DNA of 64,000 bases from Escherichia coli (GTDB lineage: Bacteria > Pseudomonadota > Gammaproteobacteria > Enterobacterales > Enterobacteriaceae), in assembly GCF_017348835.2 (NCBI RefSeq), contig NZ_CP071375.1, one strand, 5' to 3'. A model generated the notes under the pieces. The model saw only the letters and a list, made by a program, of their open reading frames with translations, was not told where the DNA came from and searched no databases. Below are positions 17,122 through 45,695 of this stretch, piece by piece (within the stretch, counting starts at the first letter, position 1; each line of letters opens with the position of its first letter). The translations under genes and the position numbers were made by a program.

Positions 17122-17349
17122 TTACTGATCCAGTTCGACCATCTCTTTCACGTCGGTACGGTTGATCTGCTGTTTGTTGCCATTAGCGTCTTTATACGAA
17201 ATCATACCGGTATCGTTATCAGTCTGTGGTTTGCCGTCAGAGACGATGGTACGTCCGTCATTGGTGTGCATCACATAGTTCGAACCGGAACAGGCGCTCA
17301 GGGCAAAAGTCAGCATACAGGCAGAAATAATTGCGGCAGTCTTTTTCAT
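17122..17349 (-). CDS. ygdI: DUF903 family lipoprotein YgdI, 75 aa
   Basis: Small ORF with lipoprotein signal (…LSAC lipobox); matches YgdI; paralogous to ygdR at 45477. Confidence 0.85.
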
Positions 17350-17540
17350 CATCTTCTCCTTAAAGCGATTAATAAATCTTAATAGTATTGATTAACAGGC
17401 TAAAATTAACGCCTAACACTATTCAGCATATGTTACTGACGCGGCTTCGCCAGGATATCCAGATAATTCTGATGGTTAGCACTCTCCTTGTATCAAAGTG
17501 AATTTTGCGTCACGATCGGTGCATCAAGCCGAGGAGTACC

Positions 17541-18746
17541 ATGAACGTTTTTAATCCCGCGCAGTTTCGCGCCCAGTTTCCCGCACTACAGGATGCGGGC
17601 GTCTATCTCGACAGCGCCGCGACCGCGCTTAAACCTGAAGCCGTGGTTGAAGCCACTCGGCAGTTTTACAGCCTGAGCGCCGGAAACGTCCATCGCAGCC
17701 AGTTTGCCGAAGCCCAACGCCTGACCGCGCGTTATGAAGCTGCGCGGGAAAAAGTGGCACAATTACTGAATGCATCGGATGACAAAAATATCGTCTGGAC
17801 GCGCGGCACCACTGAATCCATCAACATGGTGGCACAATGCTATGCGCGTCCGCGTCTGCAACCGGGCGATGAGATTATTGTCAGCGTGGCAGAACACCAC
17901 GCCAACCTCGTCCCCTGGCTGATGGTCGCCCAACAAACTGGAGCCAAAGTGGTGAAATTGCCGCTTAATGCGCAACGACTGCCGGATGTCGATTTGTTGC
18001 CGGAACTGATTACTCCCCGTAGTCGGATTCTGGCGTTGGGTCAGATGTCGAACGTTACTGGCGGTTGCCCGGATCTGGCGCGAGCGATTACCTTTGCTCA
18101 TTCAGCCGGGATGGTGGTGATGGTTGATGGTGCTCAGGGGGCGGTGCATTTCCCCGCAGATGTTCAACAACTGGATATCGATTTCTATGCTTTCTCTGGT
18201 CACAAACTGTATGGCCCGACGGGTATCGGCGTGCTGTATGGCAAATCAGAACTGCTGGAAGCGATGTCGCCCTGGCTGGGCGGCGGCAAAATGGTTCACG
18301 AAGTGAGTTTTGACGGCTTCACGACTCAATCTGCGCCGTGGAAACTGGAAGCAGGAACGCCAAATGTGGCTGGTGTCATAGGATTAAGCGCGGCGCTGGA
18401 ATGGCTGGCAGATTACGATATCAACCAGGCCGAAAGCTGGAGCCGTAGTTTAGCAACACTGGCGGAAGATGCGCTGGCGAAACGTCCAGGCTTCCGTTCA
18501 TTCCGCTGCCAGGATTCCAGCCTGCTGGCCTTTGATTTTGCTGGCGTTCATCACAGCGATATGGTGACGCTGCTGGCGGAGTATGGTATTGCCTTGCGGG
18601 CCGGGCAACATTGCGCTCAGCCGCTACTGGCAGAATTAGGCGTAACCGGCACACTGCGCGCCTCTTTTGCGCCATATAATACAAAGAGTGATGTGGATGC
18701 GCTGGTGAATGCCGTTGACCGCGCGCTGGAATTATTGGTGGATTAA
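17541..18746 (+). CDS. csdA: Cysteine desulfurase (sulfinate desulfinase) CsdA, 401 aa
   Basis: ATG 17541 preceded by GAGGAG; class V aminotransferase with the SGHK motif (pyridoxal-phosphate Lys); sequence matches CsdA. Confidence 0.9.
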
Positions 18747-19189
18747 TGACGAACCCGCAATTCGCCGGACATCCGTTCGGCACAACCGTAACCGCAGAAA
18801 CGTTACGCAATACCTTCGCACCGTTGACGCAATGGGAAGATAAATATCGCCAGTTGATCATGCTGGGGAAACAGCTTCCGGCTTTGCCAGACGAGTTAAA
18901 AGCGCAGGCTAAAGAGATTGCCGGATGCGAAAACCGCGTCTGGCTGGGATATACCGTGGCTGAAAACGGTAAAATGCACTTCTTTGGCGACAGCGAAGGA
19001 CGTATAGTACGCGGCCTGCTGGCGGTGCTGTTGACTGCCGTTGAGGGGAAAACCGCCGCCGAATTGCAGGCACAGTCGCCGCTGGCATTGTTTGATGAGC
19101 TGGGATTGCGTGCGCAACTTAGCGCCTCACGCAGCCAGGGGTTAAATGCGTTAAGCGAGGCGATTATCGCTGCGACGAAGCAGGTTTAA
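18746..19189 (+). CDS. csdE: Sulfur acceptor protein CsdE (YgdK), 147 aa
   Basis: 147-aa SufE-like ORF; start overlaps the csdA stop (ATGA), implying translational coupling. Confidence 0.9.
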
Positions 19190-19239
19190 GCACAGAACCG
19201 GGTCGGATAAGACGTTCGCGTCTCATCCGACCTGATTGT

Positions 19240-20046
19240 TTACCCCTGACGCGCCGCTTTCGCCATCATCTTCTTCAGCGCATGAGAAACCGCAACAAAC
19301 CCAAAGGTGGCGGTCACCATCGTTGCCGCGCCAAATCCAGATGCACAATCCATCCGCTTTGGTCCTTCCGCCGTGGCTTTCATCGCACACACCGTGCCGT
19401 CTGACTGCGGGTACACCAATGCTTCGGTAGAGAACACGCAATCCACGCCGAGCTTACCTTTACTGTTTTTCACTACGCCAAAATCGCTTTTCAGGCGCTC
19501 ACGCAACTTCGCCGCCAGCGGGTCCTGAATCGTTTTCGCCAGATCGGTAACCTGAATCTGCGTTGGGTCAATCTGCCCACCCGCGCCACCGGTCGTGACC
19601 AGCGGGATTTTATTGCGCCGACAATAAGCAATCAGCGCCGCTTTGGGTCGTACACTATCAATGGCATCAATCACGTACGAATAACCGGCACTCATATATT
19701 GCGCTACGTTATCCGGCGTCACGAAATCATCCACCACCGTTACACGGCACTCCGGGTTAATCTGGCGAATACGCTCCGCCATTACTTCCGCTTTTGCCTG
19801 CCCGACGTTATCGCGCAGAGCGTGAATTTGCCGATTGGTATTGGTGACGCACACATCATCCATATCGATAAGCGTGATTGCGCCAATCCCCGTGCGCGCC
19901 AGCGCTTCCGCCGCCCAGGAACCGACACCGCCAATACCGACCACACAAATATGCGCGTCAGCAAACAGTTGCAGCGCTTTTTCACCATACAGACGCGCTG
20001 TGCCACCAAAACGCTGACGCCATGCATCACTAATTACCACAGACAT
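19240..20046 (-). CDS. tcdA: tRNA threonylcarbamoyladenosine dehydratase TcdA (CsdL/YgdL), 268 aa
   Basis: 268-aa ThiF/MoeB-like E1 fold ORF (GIGGVGSWAAEALARTG nucleotide-binding motif); matches TcdA. Confidence 0.9.
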   Translation of the reverse strand: MSVVISDAWRQRFGGTARLYGEKALQLFADAHICVVGIGGVGSWAAEALARTGIGAITLIDMDDVCVTNTNRQIHALRDNVGQAKAEVMAERIRQINPECRVTVVDDFVTPDNVAQYMSAGYSYVIDAIDSVRPKAALIAYCRRNKIPLVTTGGAGGQIDPTQIQVTDLAKTIQDPLAAKLRERLKSDFGVVKNSKGKLGVDCVFSTEALVYPQSDGTVCAMKATAEGPKRMDCASGFGAATMVTATFGFVAVSHALKKMMAKAARQG

Positions 20047-20068
20047 AGCACCTCAGAATAAAAAGGGC

Positions 20069-43690: not shown

Positions 43691-43867
43691 ATCCTGTTTA
43701 TTTTCAGTGACCAGATTTGGAAAACCCGTTGCAGTGTTGCGCAACTCGATTACCGGCAACCTAAAAAGCAATATAAATCAGAGAATTGAACAACGCATGT
43801 GGAAAAAGTTACACTGCGAATATTCGGCACATAATTGCTGTTTGTTTTTTAACCAAGGTATCATGAC

Positions 43868-44557
43868 ATGTCCCAACCTCGCCCACTGCTCTCTCCTCCC
43901 GAAACTGAAGAACAGTTGTTAGCGCAAGCACAGCAACTTTCTGGTTATACATTGGGAGAACTGGCGGCACTTGCCAGGCTGGTTACGCCAGAGAATTTAA
44001 AACGCGATAAAGGCTGGATTGGCGTGTTACTGGAGATCTGGCTAGGTGCCAGCGCAGGGAGTAAACCTGAGCAAGATTTTGCTGCTCTGGGCGTGGAACT
44101 TAAAACTATCCCTGTGGATAGTCTTGGTCGTCCGCTGGAAACAACATTCGTTTGTGTTGCCCCGTTAACGGGCAATAGCGGGGTGACCTGGGAAACCAGC
44201 CACGTGCGCCACAAACTCAAACGCGTACTGTGGATACCGGTTGAAGGCGAGCGCAGCATCCCGCTGGCGCAGCGTCGCGTAGGATCACCGTTACTGTGGA
44301 GCCCGAATGAAGAGGAAGACCGACAGCTACGCGAAGACTGGGAAGAATTAATGGATATGATTGTTCTCGGTCAGGTTGAGCGGATTACCGCTCGTCACGG
44401 GGAATATTTACAGATACGACCGAAAGCAGCGAATGCGAAAGCGCTTACCGAAGCCATTGGTGCCCGGGGCGAACGGATTCTGACGCTGCCACGCGGCTTT
44501 TATTTGAAGAAAAATTTCACCAGTGCGCTGCTGGCCCGTCATTTTCTGATCCAGTAG
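43868..44557 (+). CDS. mutH: DNA mismatch repair endonuclease MutH, 229 aa
   Basis: 229-aa ORF; sequence and length match MutH. Confidence 0.95.
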
Positions 44558-44625
44558 CCATCGCTTTGACCTGCCGCTTTCCGGGCATATAATTACCGCT
44601 TCATTTTTTTGGCAGGGCTTTTTAG

Positions 44626-45339
44626 ATGTTATTTGCATGGATAACCGATCCTAACGCCTGGCTTGCGCTCGGTACGCTGACGCTGCTGGAGATCGTTCTT
44701 GGGATCGACAATATTATTTTCCTTTCTCTGGTGGTGGCAAAGCTTCCCACAGCACAACGTGCTCATGCGCGCCGTCTGGGGTTGGCGGGAGCCATGGTTA
44801 TGCGTCTGGCGCTGCTGGCATCAATCGCCTGGGTTACGCGCCTGACAAATCCGCTTTTTACAATATTCAGTCAGGAAATTTCTGCCCGTGATTTGATTCT
44901 GCTTCTGGGTGGCTTGTTCCTTATCTGGAAAGCCAGCAAGGAAATCCACGAATCCATTGAAGGTGAAGAAGAAGGGCTGAAAACACGCGTTTCATCATTC
45001 CTCGGCGCTATCGTGCAGATTATGCTGCTGGATATTATCTTCAGCCTCGACTCGGTGATTACCGCTGTGGGTCTGTCAGATCACCTGTTTATTATGATGG
45101 CAGCCGTGGTGATTGCCGTAGGCGTGATGATGTTCGCCGCGCGCTCGATTGGTGATTTTGTCGAACGCCATCCTTCGGTAAAAATGCTGGCGCTCTCTTT
45201 CCTGATTCTGGTGGGCTTTACCCTGATTCTGGAAAGTTTCGACATCCACGTACCGAAAGGTTACATCTACTTCGCGATGTTCTTCTCTATTGCGGTTGAA
45301 AGCCTCAACCTGATTCGCAACAAAAAGAATCCGCTCTGA
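44626..45339 (+). CDS. ygdQ: TerC-family (UPF0053) inner-membrane protein YgdQ, 237 aa
   Basis: 237-aa polytopic membrane ORF; matches YgdQ. Confidence 0.85.
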
Positions 45340-45476
45340 TACTCCGTACGCTCTCCTGCGGGAGGGCGTACTCACTCCTGTTACCCTCACAGTTTAAGAT
45401 TTTCCTGCTTTCAAGATATATAACGTCAGTTTATAAACAGACTATTATCATAGGTGGGCCAAATGAGGATAACCGG

Positions 45477-45695
45477 ATGAAAAAATGGGCAGTAATAATT
45501 TCTGCAGTCGGACTGGCGTTTGCTGTTTCCGGGTGTTCCAGTGATTACGTCATGGCGACCAAAGATGGCCGTATGATTTTGACCGATGGAAAACCTGAAA
45601 TTGATGATGATACCGGGCTGGTGAGTTATCACGATCAGCAAGGTAACGCGATGCAAATTAACCGTGATGATGTTTCGCAAATTATTGAACGTTAA
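45477..45695 (+). CDS. ygdR: DUF903 family lipoprotein YgdR, 72 aa
   Basis: Small ORF with lipoprotein signal (…VSGC lipobox); matches YgdR; paralog of ygdI. Confidence 0.85.

What the first reader, a model, noticed from the sequence alone, without database searches (positions are those of the whole stretch)
17122..45695. Two DUF903 lipoprotein paralogs (ygdI, ygdR) 28 kb apart on opposite strands
YgdI (17122-17349, minus) and YgdR (45477-45695, plus) are clearly paralogous small lipoproteins (shared …DYVM-T-DGR-I-TDGKP--DDDTG--SY-D--GN--QINR-DV…). Both have lipoprotein signal peptides and no known function. Duplicate small envelope lipoproteins within one neighbourhood may be functionally redundant, which would explain why single mutants have no phenotype.
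Basis: seen in the sequence. Interest (0 to 1): 0.3.

Follow-up and report, generated by a model that had tools for sequence, protein, structure and literature searches.

The report
Known paralogous lipoproteins YgdI and YgdR
The two small genes really are old duplicate copies of one outer-membrane lipoprotein family (DUF903, named YgdI/YgdR) found in nearly every E. coli; this is already catalogued, and what the proteins do is still unknown.

Summary
Observation confirmed. ygdI (17122-17349, minus) and ygdR (45477-45695, plus) encode 75- and 72-residue lipoproteins that are 60% identical (E=1e-31). Both match Pfam DUF903 and NCBIfam 'YgdI/YgdR family lipoprotein'. The window is E. coli core chromosome, and both genes occur in more than 99.9% of 5,426 complete genomes.

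The pair is already known. The family is named after these two genes, and structural-genomics structures exist (YgdR: 2JN0/3FIF; YgdI orthologues: 2RA2, 5CAI, 3BDU). They show an Sm/Hfq-like small beta-barrel. I found no paper dedicated to their function.

- The duplication is ancient. Third codon positions are saturated, and each copy keeps its own neighbours (gcvB/gcvA-csdA versus mutH-ygdQ-tas) in Enterobacteriaceae, Erwiniaceae and Yersiniaceae.
- The roughly 28 kb opposite-strand spacing is conserved in 7 of 8 genomes tested.
- Enterobacterales have a third paralogue that E. coli lacks.
- Family members are the cargo of about 2.5 kb ColE1-type plasmids.

The 'redundant back-up' reading is only partly supported. 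Each lineage keeps its own conserved residues and its own promoter. Published data put ygdI under RpoS and ygdR under Rcs, although both rise under envelope stress. Low interest; already known.

The parts
17122..17349 (-). ygdI coding sequence (75 aa; DUF903 / YgdI-YgdR family lipoprotein)
   Evidence: ORF; Pfam and NCBIfam hits; annotated ygdI in RefSeq E. coli; 94% identical over the aligned stretch to the chain of PDB 2RA2.
17290..17349 (-). ygdI signal peptide and lipobox (residues 1-20, L-S-A-C; Cys20 is the lipidated first residue of the mature protein, Ser at +2)
   Evidence: Read from the translation. Cys is invariant in the 50-sequence family alignment. The +2 residue is never Asp in the 67 representatives listed, with one Arg and some regex mis-anchors. 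His-tagged YgdI was recovered in outer-membrane and vesicle fractions (PMC8284480).
17356..17361 (-). ygdI Shine-Dalgarno AAGGAG
   Evidence: conserved in 9 of 10 orthologue upstream regions.
17425..17453 (-). Candidate ygdI promoter: -35 CTGGCG (17448-17453), 17-nt spacer, -10 TATGCT (17425-17430)
   Evidence: The TATGCT block and the CTGGC block align across Escherichia, Klebsiella, Superficieibacter, Serratia, Yersinia and Pantoea; Erwinia has TATCCT. TATGCT fits the sigma-S-favoured TAYRCT form (my knowledge). No transcription start was mapped here.
17459..17472 (-). RcsB-box-like element TCAGAATTATCTGG, 5 nt upstream of the candidate -35
   Evidence: One mismatch to TN(G/A)GAN4TC(T/C)NA, the consensus from PMC7913699. 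Found. Kept at the same position with one mismatch in four Enterobacteriaceae genera, but not in Erwiniaceae or Yersiniaceae. About 0.1 such hits are expected by chance per 200 nt (my estimate).
17077..17098 (.). GC-rich hairpin between the converging 3' ends of gcvB and ygdI: gcvB terminator, probably also the ygdI terminator
   Evidence: Terminator scan. GcvB lies at 16900-17105 (+) with 199 bits. The ygdI stop codon at 17122-17124 is 16 nt from the gcvB end. The tail-to-tail gap is 9-28 nt in 10 of 12 Enterobacterales loci.
45393..45410 (+). Conserved element TTTAAGATTTTCCTGCTT upstream of ygdR, with a T(A/C)AGA half-site
   Evidence: T(A/C)AGA is present at the same aligned position in all 15 upstream regions that could be scored (14 genera plus the window; 2 more gave no anchor). 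The element abuts the candidate -35. The full RcsB box is missed by 2 mismatches, so assignment to RcsB is unproven. ygdR is listed as Rcs-induced in PMC5105897.
45409..45437 (+). Candidate ygdR promoter: -35 TTTCAA (45409-45414), 17-nt spacer, -10 TATAAA (45432-45437; TATTAC in most other genera)
   Evidence: The position is conserved, and both hexamers lack the usual final T, as in many activator-dependent promoters (inference).
45465..45469 (+). ygdR Shine-Dalgarno GAGGA
45477..45695 (+). ygdR coding sequence (72 aa; DUF903 / YgdI-YgdR family lipoprotein)
   Evidence: ORF; family hits; annotated ygdR; residues 21-72 are identical to the chain of PDB 2JN0/3FIF.
45477..45533 (+). ygdR signal peptide and lipobox (residues 1-19, V-S-G-C; Cys19, Ser at +2)
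   Evidence: Translation. The O157:H7 proteome table lists the cleavage context VSGC19S and detects the protein (PMC3210124).
45700..45734 (+). ygdR intrinsic terminator (10-pair hairpin followed by a T-rich run)

Best explanation
ygdI and ygdR are two anciently diverged paralogues of the DUF903 (YgdI/YgdR) family. These are stand-alone, monocistronic genes for 54-56-residue mature lipoproteins.

Shown here:
- Each protein has a Sec/lipoprotein signal peptide with a lipobox cysteine. Only 2-4 residues separate that cysteine from the first strand of an Sm/Hfq-like five/six-stranded small beta-barrel.
- Both genes are core E. coli genes.
- The duplication predates the split of Enterobacteriaceae, Erwiniaceae and Yersiniaceae. 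Each copy has kept its own chromosomal slot: ygdI between gcvB/gcvA and csdA, ygdR between mutH-ygdQ and tas. The spacing of about 28 kb on opposite strands is also kept.
- A third paralogue lineage exists in the order and is absent from E. coli.

Inferred:
- Ser at +2 sends both proteins to the outer membrane, where the barrel sits almost flush against the inner leaflet.
- Both belong to envelope and general stress programmes. Published data put ygdI under RpoS, with a Cpx effect and strong induction when lipoprotein trafficking or the cell wall is hit, and ygdR under Rcs.
- Most likely they are small acidic binding modules. The working surface would be the family-conserved loop pair DGKP / DxDTG, and the paralogues would be specialised in regulation and in about 11 lineage-specific residues rather than being plain back-ups. 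The partner or ligand is unknown.
For: Paralogy and family membership:
-.

Core-gene status:
- ygdI is in 5425 of 5426 complete genomes and the ygdR region in 5423 of 5426.

Age of the duplication:
- Nucleotide identity is 59%, third-position identity 35%, and dS cannot be calculated.
- ygdI DNA does not detect ygdR by blastn.

Synteny:
- 20 of 23 YgdI-type genes lie next to gcvA and 17 of 23 next to csdA.
- 29 of 31 YgdR-type genes lie next to tas and 23-24 of 31 next to ygdQ/mutH.
- These include Serratia, Yersinia, Rahnella, Erwinia, Pantoea, Mixta, Tatumella and a Rouxiella-like contig.
- The two genes are 27.5-31.0 kb apart on opposite strands in 7 of 8 genomes where both lie on one contig, and 65.6 kb apart in K. 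oxytoca.

Lineage separation:
- Identity is 83-86% within a class and 54-58% between classes.
- 11 positions are class-specific and 22 are shared.

Fold:
- The AlphaFold model has pLDDT 84, above 88 in the domain.
- Solved structures are 2JN0/3FIF, 2RA2, 5CAI and 3BDU.

Short tether and non-Asp +2 residue:
-.

Expression and regulation from the literature:
- RpoS-dependent YgdI in Salmonella (PMC5437024).
- ygdI is lower in a cpxRA deletion of C. rodentium (PMC6153362).
- A LolCDE inhibitor induces ygdI 25-53x and ygdR 8-12x, and ygdR is annotated there as Rcs-induced (PMC5105897).
- Both rise after acid shock, and both are detected in a proteome.
- YgdI is among the most strongly newly made proteins in ampicillin-treated persisters, alongside RpoS, MliC and Ugd.
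- YgdI is found in outer membrane and vesicles.

Promoters:
- Each gene has its own conserved promoter elements.
Against: - No experiment or conserved gene neighbour reveals a partner or ligand. All contexts examined are stand-alone genes with unrelated neighbours: carB, kefF, acnB.
- Outer-membrane placement for YgdR rests on the +2 rule only.
- The RcsB assignment is weak. No exact box is present: ygdI has 1 mismatch (about 0.1 expected by chance per region) and ygdR has 2 mismatches (about 1 expected by chance).
- The invariance of DGKPxxDxDTG in my 112-gene set is partly an artefact, because that motif was the search pattern. In the unbiased 50-sequence alignment only Cys and one Gly are invariant, and a further Gly and the Pro reach at least 90%.
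- The branching order of the three lineages is unresolved (bootstrap 0-24% for any pairing).
- Overlapping induction under the same stresses is compatible with partial redundancy.
Confidence: 0.75

Rival explanations
1. Plain functional redundancy. The two proteins do the same job interchangeably, and either one suffices, which hides single-mutant phenotypes.
For: - 60% identity, the same fold, the same predicted compartment and the same short tether.
- Identical conserved loops.
- Both are induced by LolCDE inhibition and acid shock.
- No dedicated phenotype paper was found.
Against: - Fully redundant copies are not expected to persist separately across a whole bacterial order. Here each lineage is 83-86% conserved internally, with 11 lineage-specific fixed residues.
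- Each lineage has a distinct conserved promoter.
- Different main regulators are reported.
- Many relatives keep a third lineage as well.
- ygdI insertions alone gave a TraDIS signal.
Confidence: 0.2
2. Protective or immunity-like inhibitors. DUF903 lipoproteins would neutralise an envelope-attacking agent (a hydrolase, bacteriocin or contact-dependent toxin) by inserting the conserved loop into it, much as the small Rcs-regulated lipoprotein MliC blocks lysozyme. The paralogues would cover different targets.
For: - Family members are the main cargo of tiny mobilisable ColE1-type plasmids: 381 plasmid records, and typical 2,495-bp plasmids whose only annotated genes are the lipoprotein, a 72-aa ORF and Rop.
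- 4.1-kb plasmids carry two copies in tandem.
- An IS3-like transposase ORF (my reading of its sequence) lies about 3 kb from an extra copy in Superficieibacter.
- Three of 5426 E. coli genomes acquired a third-type copy.
- A Serratia survey found a DUF903 cluster correlated with type VI secretion presence (PMC12165300).
- YgdI is co-induced with MliC and Ivy.
Against: - No toxin or effector gene sits next to any copy examined.
- There are no hits in the PADLOC defence library, and PHROGs hits are only weak, limited to the N-terminal residues (about 1-50/65) that include the signal peptide.
- The chromosomal copies are strictly vertical core genes, unlike typical immunity genes.
- The correlation in Serratia is statistical only.
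Confidence: 0.1
3. An Sm-like ring. Like Hfq and Lsm proteins, the barrels would assemble edge-to-edge into hexameric or heptameric rings under the outer membrane and act as an oligomeric scaffold or ligand-binding ring, possibly as mixed YgdI/YgdR rings.
For: - Crystal entries hold 6, 6, 7 and 8 chains (5CAI, 2RA2, 3BDU, 3FIF).
Against: - Chain counts per entry are not evidence of a biological assembly.
- The entry 2JN0 (an NMR structure, by my recollection) holds one chain.
- Sequence identity to Hfq/Lsm is 6-19%, with no Sm-family Pfam hit.
- The N-terminal helix of Sm proteins is replaced by the lipid anchor.
- I could not inspect the coordinates.
Confidence: 0.07
4. The similarity is by chance, or the ORFs are not real genes.
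For: None beyond their small size.
Against: E=1e-31 and z=29; curated family hits; solved structures; proteome detection; conservation across hundreds of genomes.
Confidence: 0.01

Closest known systems
DUF903 (Pfam PF06004) / NCBIfam NF033216 'YgdI/YgdR family lipoprotein'
   Same: Both proteins are the founding, name-giving members. They score far above the curated cut-offs, have the typical 70-77 aa length and the lipobox, and have the solved fold (2JN0/3FIF for YgdR; 2RA2, 5CAI and 3BDU for YgdI orthologues).
   Different: Nothing differs. This is the family itself, and its function is undescribed.
Sm / Lsm / Hfq small beta-barrels
   Different: Only 6-19% identity and no Sm-family sequence match. 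These proteins are exported and lipid-anchored rather than cytoplasmic, so RNA binding is implausible. Ring formation is untested.
Small stress-induced outer-membrane lipoproteins of E. coli (OsmB, OsmE, Slp, YbaY, MliC)
   Same: Small monocistronic lipoprotein genes induced by RpoS and/or Rcs and by envelope damage. They appear in the same induction lists.
   Different: No sequence or fold relationship was shown. MliC has a defined target (lysozyme), whereas YgdI and YgdR have none.
Third Enterobacterales DUF903 lineage (77 aa, ...[54 protein letters not shown]) and the plasmid-borne variants
   Same: The same family (NF033216 102 bits; PF06004 53-65 bits), the same architecture, and 54-58% identity to YgdI and YgdR.
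   Different: This lineage sits upstream of kefF-kefC-folA or next to carB. Full-length copies are absent from 5423 of 5426 E. coli genomes. Related copies ride on 2.5-4.1 kb ColE1-type plasmids.

Membership tests
DUF903 / YgdI-YgdR family lipoprotein | Sequence match to the curated family models above their cut-offs | tested here: met
   PF06004: 83.9 and 85.9 bits against a cut-off of 27. NF033216: 113.2 and 105.9 bits against a cut-off of 42.
DUF903 / YgdI-YgdR family lipoprotein | N-terminal signal peptide ending in a lipobox cysteine, with a total length of about 70-77 aa | tested here: met
   LSAC (Cys20, 75 aa) and VSGC (Cys19, 72 aa). Cys is invariant in 50 family members.
DUF903 / YgdI-YgdR family lipoprotein | Small Sm-like beta-barrel fold of the mature domain | tested here: met
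DUF903 / YgdI-YgdR family lipoprotein | Actual lipid modification and outer-membrane location | not testable with these tools
   Inferred from Ser at +2, since no Asp means no Lol-avoidance signal (established rule). Literature: tagged YgdI in outer-membrane and vesicle fractions, and 'verified lipoprotein' in a gene table.
Rcs regulon (direct RcsB targets) | RcsB box TN(G/A)GAN4TC(T/C)NA near the promoter | tested here: inconclusive
   Neither gene has an exact match. ygdI has 1 mismatch at 17459-17472, conserved in four Enterobacteriaceae genera. ygdR has 2 mismatches, but its T(A/C)AGA half-site is present in all 15 upstream regions that could be scored (14 genera plus the window). Induction data come from the literature only.
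RpoS (sigma-S) regulon | RpoS-dependent expression and a sigma-S-type -10 element | tested here: inconclusive
   A conserved -10 TATGCT lies upstream of ygdI. It lacks the -13 C that sigma-S prefers (a preference I know from prior reading). Dependence on RpoS is reported for ygdI in Salmonella and E. coli. I found no such report for ygdR.
Sm / Lsm / Hfq family | Sequence-level Sm motifs or a family model match | tested here: not met
Sm / Lsm / Hfq family | Hexameric or heptameric ring assembly | not tested
   Only chain counts per PDB entry are available; the coordinates could not be inspected.
Known anti-phage defence or phage protein families | Match to PADLOC or PHROGs models | tested here: not met
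   PADLOC gave no hit. PHROGs gave only weak hits (E of 8.6e-5 or worse) limited to the N-terminal residues (about 1-50/65) that include the signal peptide.

The most novel reading that the evidence does not exclude
DUF903 lipoproteins may be a horizontally mobile, diversifying set of envelope-protective ('immunity-like') factors. The chromosomal YgdI, YgdR and third-paralogue set, together with the copies carried as essentially the only cargo of 2.5-4 kb ColE1-type plasmids, would each neutralise a different envelope-targeting agent through the conserved DGKP/DxDTG loops. If so, a phenotype would appear only in multiple deletions or against the right attacker.
Probability: 0.1. Interest if true: 0.55.

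Novelty: already known. Interest (0 to 1): 0.15.

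Why it matters
The paralogy is built into the family's name, both genes are annotated in every RefSeq E. coli genome, and the structures were solved years ago.

What remains open is the function of a small, abundant, stress-induced outer-membrane lipoprotein family that is conserved across Enterobacterales and beyond.
- E. coli is a convenient two-copy background, because relatives carry three or more.
- The copies are old and individually constrained, so a double knockout is necessary but may not be sufficient.
- ygdI abuts gcvB tail-to-tail, so ygdI insertion phenotypes need a control for polar effects.
- The plasmid-borne copies offer a natural gain-of-function test.

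Tried and rejected
I replaced it with a degenerate DNA pattern for DGKPxxDxDTG. This biases the set towards genes that keep the motif, and the scan stopped at 120 loci, so absences in a genome are not evidence of loss.

2. Trace of a larger segmental duplication: rejected.
- The Aminotran_5 fragment beside the Rouxiella-like ygdR looks like a C-terminal fragment of an IscS/NifS-type enzyme (my reading of its SSGSAC motif) and is only 22% identical to CsdA.
- An all-against-all blastp of 47 window proteins finds no other pair except gcvA/lysR (27%), two members of the very large LysR family.

3. Long 'multi-domain' hits P0156 and P0173 are repetitive, compositionally biased proteins, not DUF903. 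P0267 has repeated hairpin-like motifs of unclear relation.

4. Shared promoter motifs between the two genes: none is significant (score 12 against 10.8+/-1.8 for shuffles).

5. Exact RcsB boxes: none.

6. Order of the three lineages: unresolved. The only hint is that the Pseudomonas and Aeromonas forms share the YgdR-type '...ER' C-terminus and sit nearer YgdR in the NJ tree, which would make YgdR the ancestral type (low support).

7. Conserved functional neighbours in distant taxa: none.

8. A bootstrap run timed out once and was redone on a subsample.

9. One paper states that the sRNA SroC derives from the ygdR mRNA. This contradicts what I know (SroC comes from the gltIJKL transcript), so I did not use it.

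10. ygdI overexpression was tested for 3-hydroxypropionate tolerance in PMC12591173, but it is not among the genes reported as effective.

Full report
**1. The observation**

The window holds an ORF at 17122-17352 on the minus strand and one at 45477-45695 on the plus strand. The first has two adjacent ATG codons. The Shine-Dalgarno AAGGAG lies 6 nt before the second ATG (my count from the sequence), and orthologues keep only that ATG.

- BLASTP of the two products gives 43/72 identities (60%), 75% positives and one single-residue gap, E=1e-31.
- The mature parts score 166, against 24.2+/-4.9 (maximum 55) for 2,000 shuffles.
- Both carry a lipobox: LSAC with Cys20, and VSGC with Cys19.
- Both match Pfam DUF903 and NCBIfam NF033216, 'YgdI/YgdR family lipoprotein', far above the curated cut-offs.

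**2. Where the window comes from**

The window is E. coli core chromosome and is 100% identical to strain PE164 over both stretches compared. Its gene order was checked by translating every annotated gene:

ppnN-sdaCB-xni-fuc operon-rlmM-ygdD-gcvA-(gcvB)-ygdI-csdAE-tcdA-mltA-3 tRNA-Met-amiC-argA-recD-recB-ptrA-recC-ppdCB/ygdB-thyA-lgt-ptsP-rppH-mutH-ygdQ-ygdR-tas-lplT-aas-(omrA/B)-galR-lysA-lysR...

ygdI is present in 5425 of 5426 complete E. coli genomes, and the ygdR region in 5423.

**3. What the proteins are**

YgdR residues 21-72 are identical to the chains of PDB 2JN0 and 3FIF. YgdI is 94% identical, over the aligned stretch, to the chain of 2RA2, which the Salmonella paper links to YgdI. 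It is close to 5CAI and 3BDU as well. All of these are deposited as 'putative lipoprotein' entries without a stated function.

- An AlphaFold model of YgdI (pLDDT 84, above 88 in the domain) has six short strands, starting three residues after the lipidated cysteine.
- The fold is therefore an Sm-like small beta-barrel, but the proteins are not Sm-family members by sequence.

A search of 1.84 billion representative proteins found 150 clusters at E<=1e-3. Those that look complete are nearly all 68-80-residue lipoproteins with a 2-5-residue tether and S/A/G/T, with one Arg but never Asp, after the cysteine. By the established Lol-avoidance rule this predicts outer-membrane sorting. Tagged YgdI has been recovered from outer membrane and vesicles (PMC8284480). 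All four sequence classes are acidic, with mean pI 4.4-4.8.

**4. Age and history of the duplication**

The two genes are 59% identical in DNA and only 35% identical at third codon positions. Synonymous divergence is saturated, and blastn with ygdI does not find ygdR.

I translated and classified 112 DUF903 genes from them:

| Class | Genes |
|---|---|
| YgdI-type | 23 |
| YgdR-type | 31 |
| Third type (77 residues) | 47 |
| Pseudomonas type | 11 |

- YgdI-type genes lie next to gcvA (20/23) and csdA (17/23).
- YgdR-type genes lie next to tas (29/31), ygdQ/mutH (23-24/31) and lplT.
- This holds in Yersiniaceae (Serratia, Yersinia, Rahnella, and a Rouxiella-like contig) and in Erwiniaceae (Erwinia, Pantoea, Mixta, Tatumella, Winslowiella). 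Both copies were therefore already in place before these families diverged.
- Where both genes lie on one contig, they are 27.5-31.0 kb apart on opposite strands in seven genomes, and 65.6 kb apart in Klebsiella oxytoca.
- Identity is 83-86% within a class and 54-58% between classes. Eleven positions are fixed differently in YgdI and YgdR.
- The branching order of the classes is unresolved.
- I found no trace of a larger duplicated segment.

**5. A third paralogue that E. coli lacks**

The third type is itself a good NF033216 match. In Salmonella arizonae it lies directly upstream of kefF-kefC-folA. In Citrobacter and Klebsiella it lies beside the same MFS-transporter or kefF genes, and in Enterobacter and others next to carB.

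In E. coli a full-length match exists in only 3 of 5426 genomes. E. coli is therefore a two-copy species within an order where three or more copies are common. Superficieibacter, for example, has four to five.

**6. Regulation**

*Literature*
- YgdI is RpoS-dependent in Salmonella (PMC5437024) and is described as RpoS-induced in E. coli.
- ygdI falls in a cpxRA deletion of Citrobacter rodentium.
- A LolCDE inhibitor raises ygdI 25-53-fold and ygdR 8-12-fold. ygdR is noted there as Rcs-induced after cell-wall damage (PMC5105897).
- Both rise after acid shock and slightly with a cathelicidin peptide.
- YgdI is among the most strongly newly synthesised proteins in ampicillin-treated persisters, together with RpoS, MliC and Ugd.

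*Sequence analysis here*
- The two upstream regions share no significant similarity, but each is conserved among its own orthologues.
- ygdI has a conserved -35/-10 pair: CTGGCG, 17 nt, TATGCT (17448-17453 and 17425-17430). Five bases upstream lies TCAGAATTATCTGG (17459-17472), one mismatch from the RcsB box TN(G/A)GAN4TC(T/C)NA defined in PMC7913699. That box is kept in four Enterobacteriaceae genera only.
- ygdR has the strongly conserved element TTTAAGATTTTCCTGCTT (45393-45410), which abuts a weak -35. Its T(A/C)AGA half-site is present in all 15 upstream regions that could be scored, but the full box is two mismatches away.

These are candidate sites, not demonstrated ones.

**7. How it most likely works**

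*Shown:* exported lipoproteins, a tiny acidic Sm-like barrel on a very short tether, old and separately constrained paralogues, and expression during envelope and general stress.

*Inferred:* an outer-membrane, periplasm-facing location with the barrel held close to the membrane, and a working surface formed by the family-conserved loops (DGKP after strand 2, DxDTG after strand 3).

In an unbiased 50-sequence alignment only the Cys and one Gly are invariant, while a further Gly and the Pro reach at least 90%. The perfect loop conservation in my 112-gene set is partly caused by the search pattern. No conserved neighbour, fusion or library match points to a partner.

My best reading is a pair of stress-induced binding modules with overlapping chemistry, but different regulation and different fine specificity. 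The ligand is unknown.

**8. Rivals**

- *Plain redundancy.* It fits the shared fold and the shared induction. It does not fit the long separate retention, the lineage-specific residues and the distinct promoters.
- *Immunity- or inhibitor-like role.* This is suggested by the mobile copies (section 9) and by co-induction with lysozyme inhibitors. It lacks any adjacent toxin gene or defence-library hit.
- *Sm-like ring.* This is suggested only by the fold and by the number of chains in crystal entries. I could not test it.

**9. Seen in passing**

- GcvB (16900-17105, plus strand, 199 bits) ends 16 nt from the ygdI stop codon, and the two share a hairpin. This tail-to-tail arrangement, with a 9-28 nt gap, recurs in 10 of 12 Enterobacterales loci.
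- ygdI transposon phenotypes under trimethoprim and sulfamethoxazole were found together with hfq. They may therefore reflect gcvB or gcvA rather than YgdI (my inference).
- tblastn of YgdI finds 381 plasmid records, 278 of them typed as mobilisable. Typical 2,495-bp ColE1-type plasmids carry only the lipoprotein gene, a 72-residue ORF and rop. The 4.1-kb versions carry two DUF903 genes 21 nt apart plus MbeB/MobC-type mobilisation genes.

**10. Verdict**

The finding is real and correctly described, but it is already known and, as stated, ordinary. The redundancy idea is a reasonable experiment to propose, but it is not supported as the explanation. I set interest at 0.15. The most novel reading not excluded, that the family provides mobile envelope-protective factors, has about a 10% chance.

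Noticed in passing
window 16900-17124 (gcvB 16900-17105 +; hairpin 17077-17098; ygdI stop codon 17122-17124 -): The sRNA gene gcvB and ygdI converge tail-to-tail, 16 nt apart, and share one terminator hairpin. The same arrangement (9-28 nt gap) is found in 10 of 12 Enterobacterales loci, and 81-162 nt in Yersinia. Read-through from ygdI would be antisense to gcvB. Published ygdI transposon phenotypes under antifolates, found together with hfq, may be polar effects on gcvB or gcvA.
   Followed up: partly
L130 (NZ_CP066114.1, 2,495 bp) 163-390; L131 (AP024920.1, 4,096 bp) 1866-2099 and 2121-2348: DUF903 lipoprotein genes are essentially the only cargo of very small ColE1/ColRNAI-type plasmids. 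There are 381 plasmid records, 278 typed mobilisable, mostly from Enterobacter, Pantoea, Klebsiella, Salmonella and Serratia. The 4.1-kb plasmids carry two different DUF903 genes in tandem, 21 nt apart. Their function is unknown, and I did not find this discussed in the papers searched.
   Followed up: partly
L125 1609-1872 (Salmonella arizonae); L010, L021, L106 and 40+ other loci: There is a third, 77-residue DUF903 paralogue lineage, widespread in Enterobacterales. It lies upstream of kefF-kefC-folA or next to carB. Full-length copies are absent from 5423 of 5426 complete E. coli genomes; the three carriers have a copy about 75% identical in DNA to the Salmonella arizonae gene used as query.
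   Followed up: yes
window 50221-50603 (aas-galR spacer); OmrA-B hit 50308-50389 (-): Only one OmrA/OmrB-family sRNA gene is detected in this spacer, even at a relaxed threshold. As I recall, E. coli K-12 has the tandem pair omrA-omrB here, so this strain may carry a recombined single copy.
   Followed up: partly
window 39368-40243 (lgt), 46875-50220 (lplT-aas): The gene for the first lipoprotein-maturation enzyme (lgt) lies between the two lipoprotein paralogues. The lysophospholipid-recycling genes lplT-aas, which as I recall deal with the by-product of lipoprotein N-acylation, lie just past ygdR. The ygdR-tas-lplT-aas neighbourhood is conserved across the order (24 of 31 loci), but I have no evidence of a functional link.
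   Followed up: no
window 20120-20162 (-): Rfam hit to ES036 (CssrF) sRNA, 46.5 bits against a gathering score of 37.6, in the tcdA-mltA spacer.
   Followed up: no
window about 37912-38382 (ppdA; L002 25641-26111): ppdA is annotated as a pseudogene with an internal stop in the matching strain, PE164.
   Followed up: no
L132 (Pantoea agglomerans plasmid pPAG03) 4627-6822: On Pantoea megaplasmids a DUF903 gene sits between a YgiW/YdeI stress-tolerance OB-fold gene and a YfaZ outer-membrane protein gene, which makes a small cluster of envelope-stress genes.
   Followed up: no
P0267 (791 aa, metagenomic): This long protein has at least five repeats resembling the DUF903 strand-loop motif (...VLVDANGNPL...YKDANGN.YY...). 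Whether it is a true tandem DUF903 array or an unrelated hairpin repeat was not resolved.
   Followed up: no
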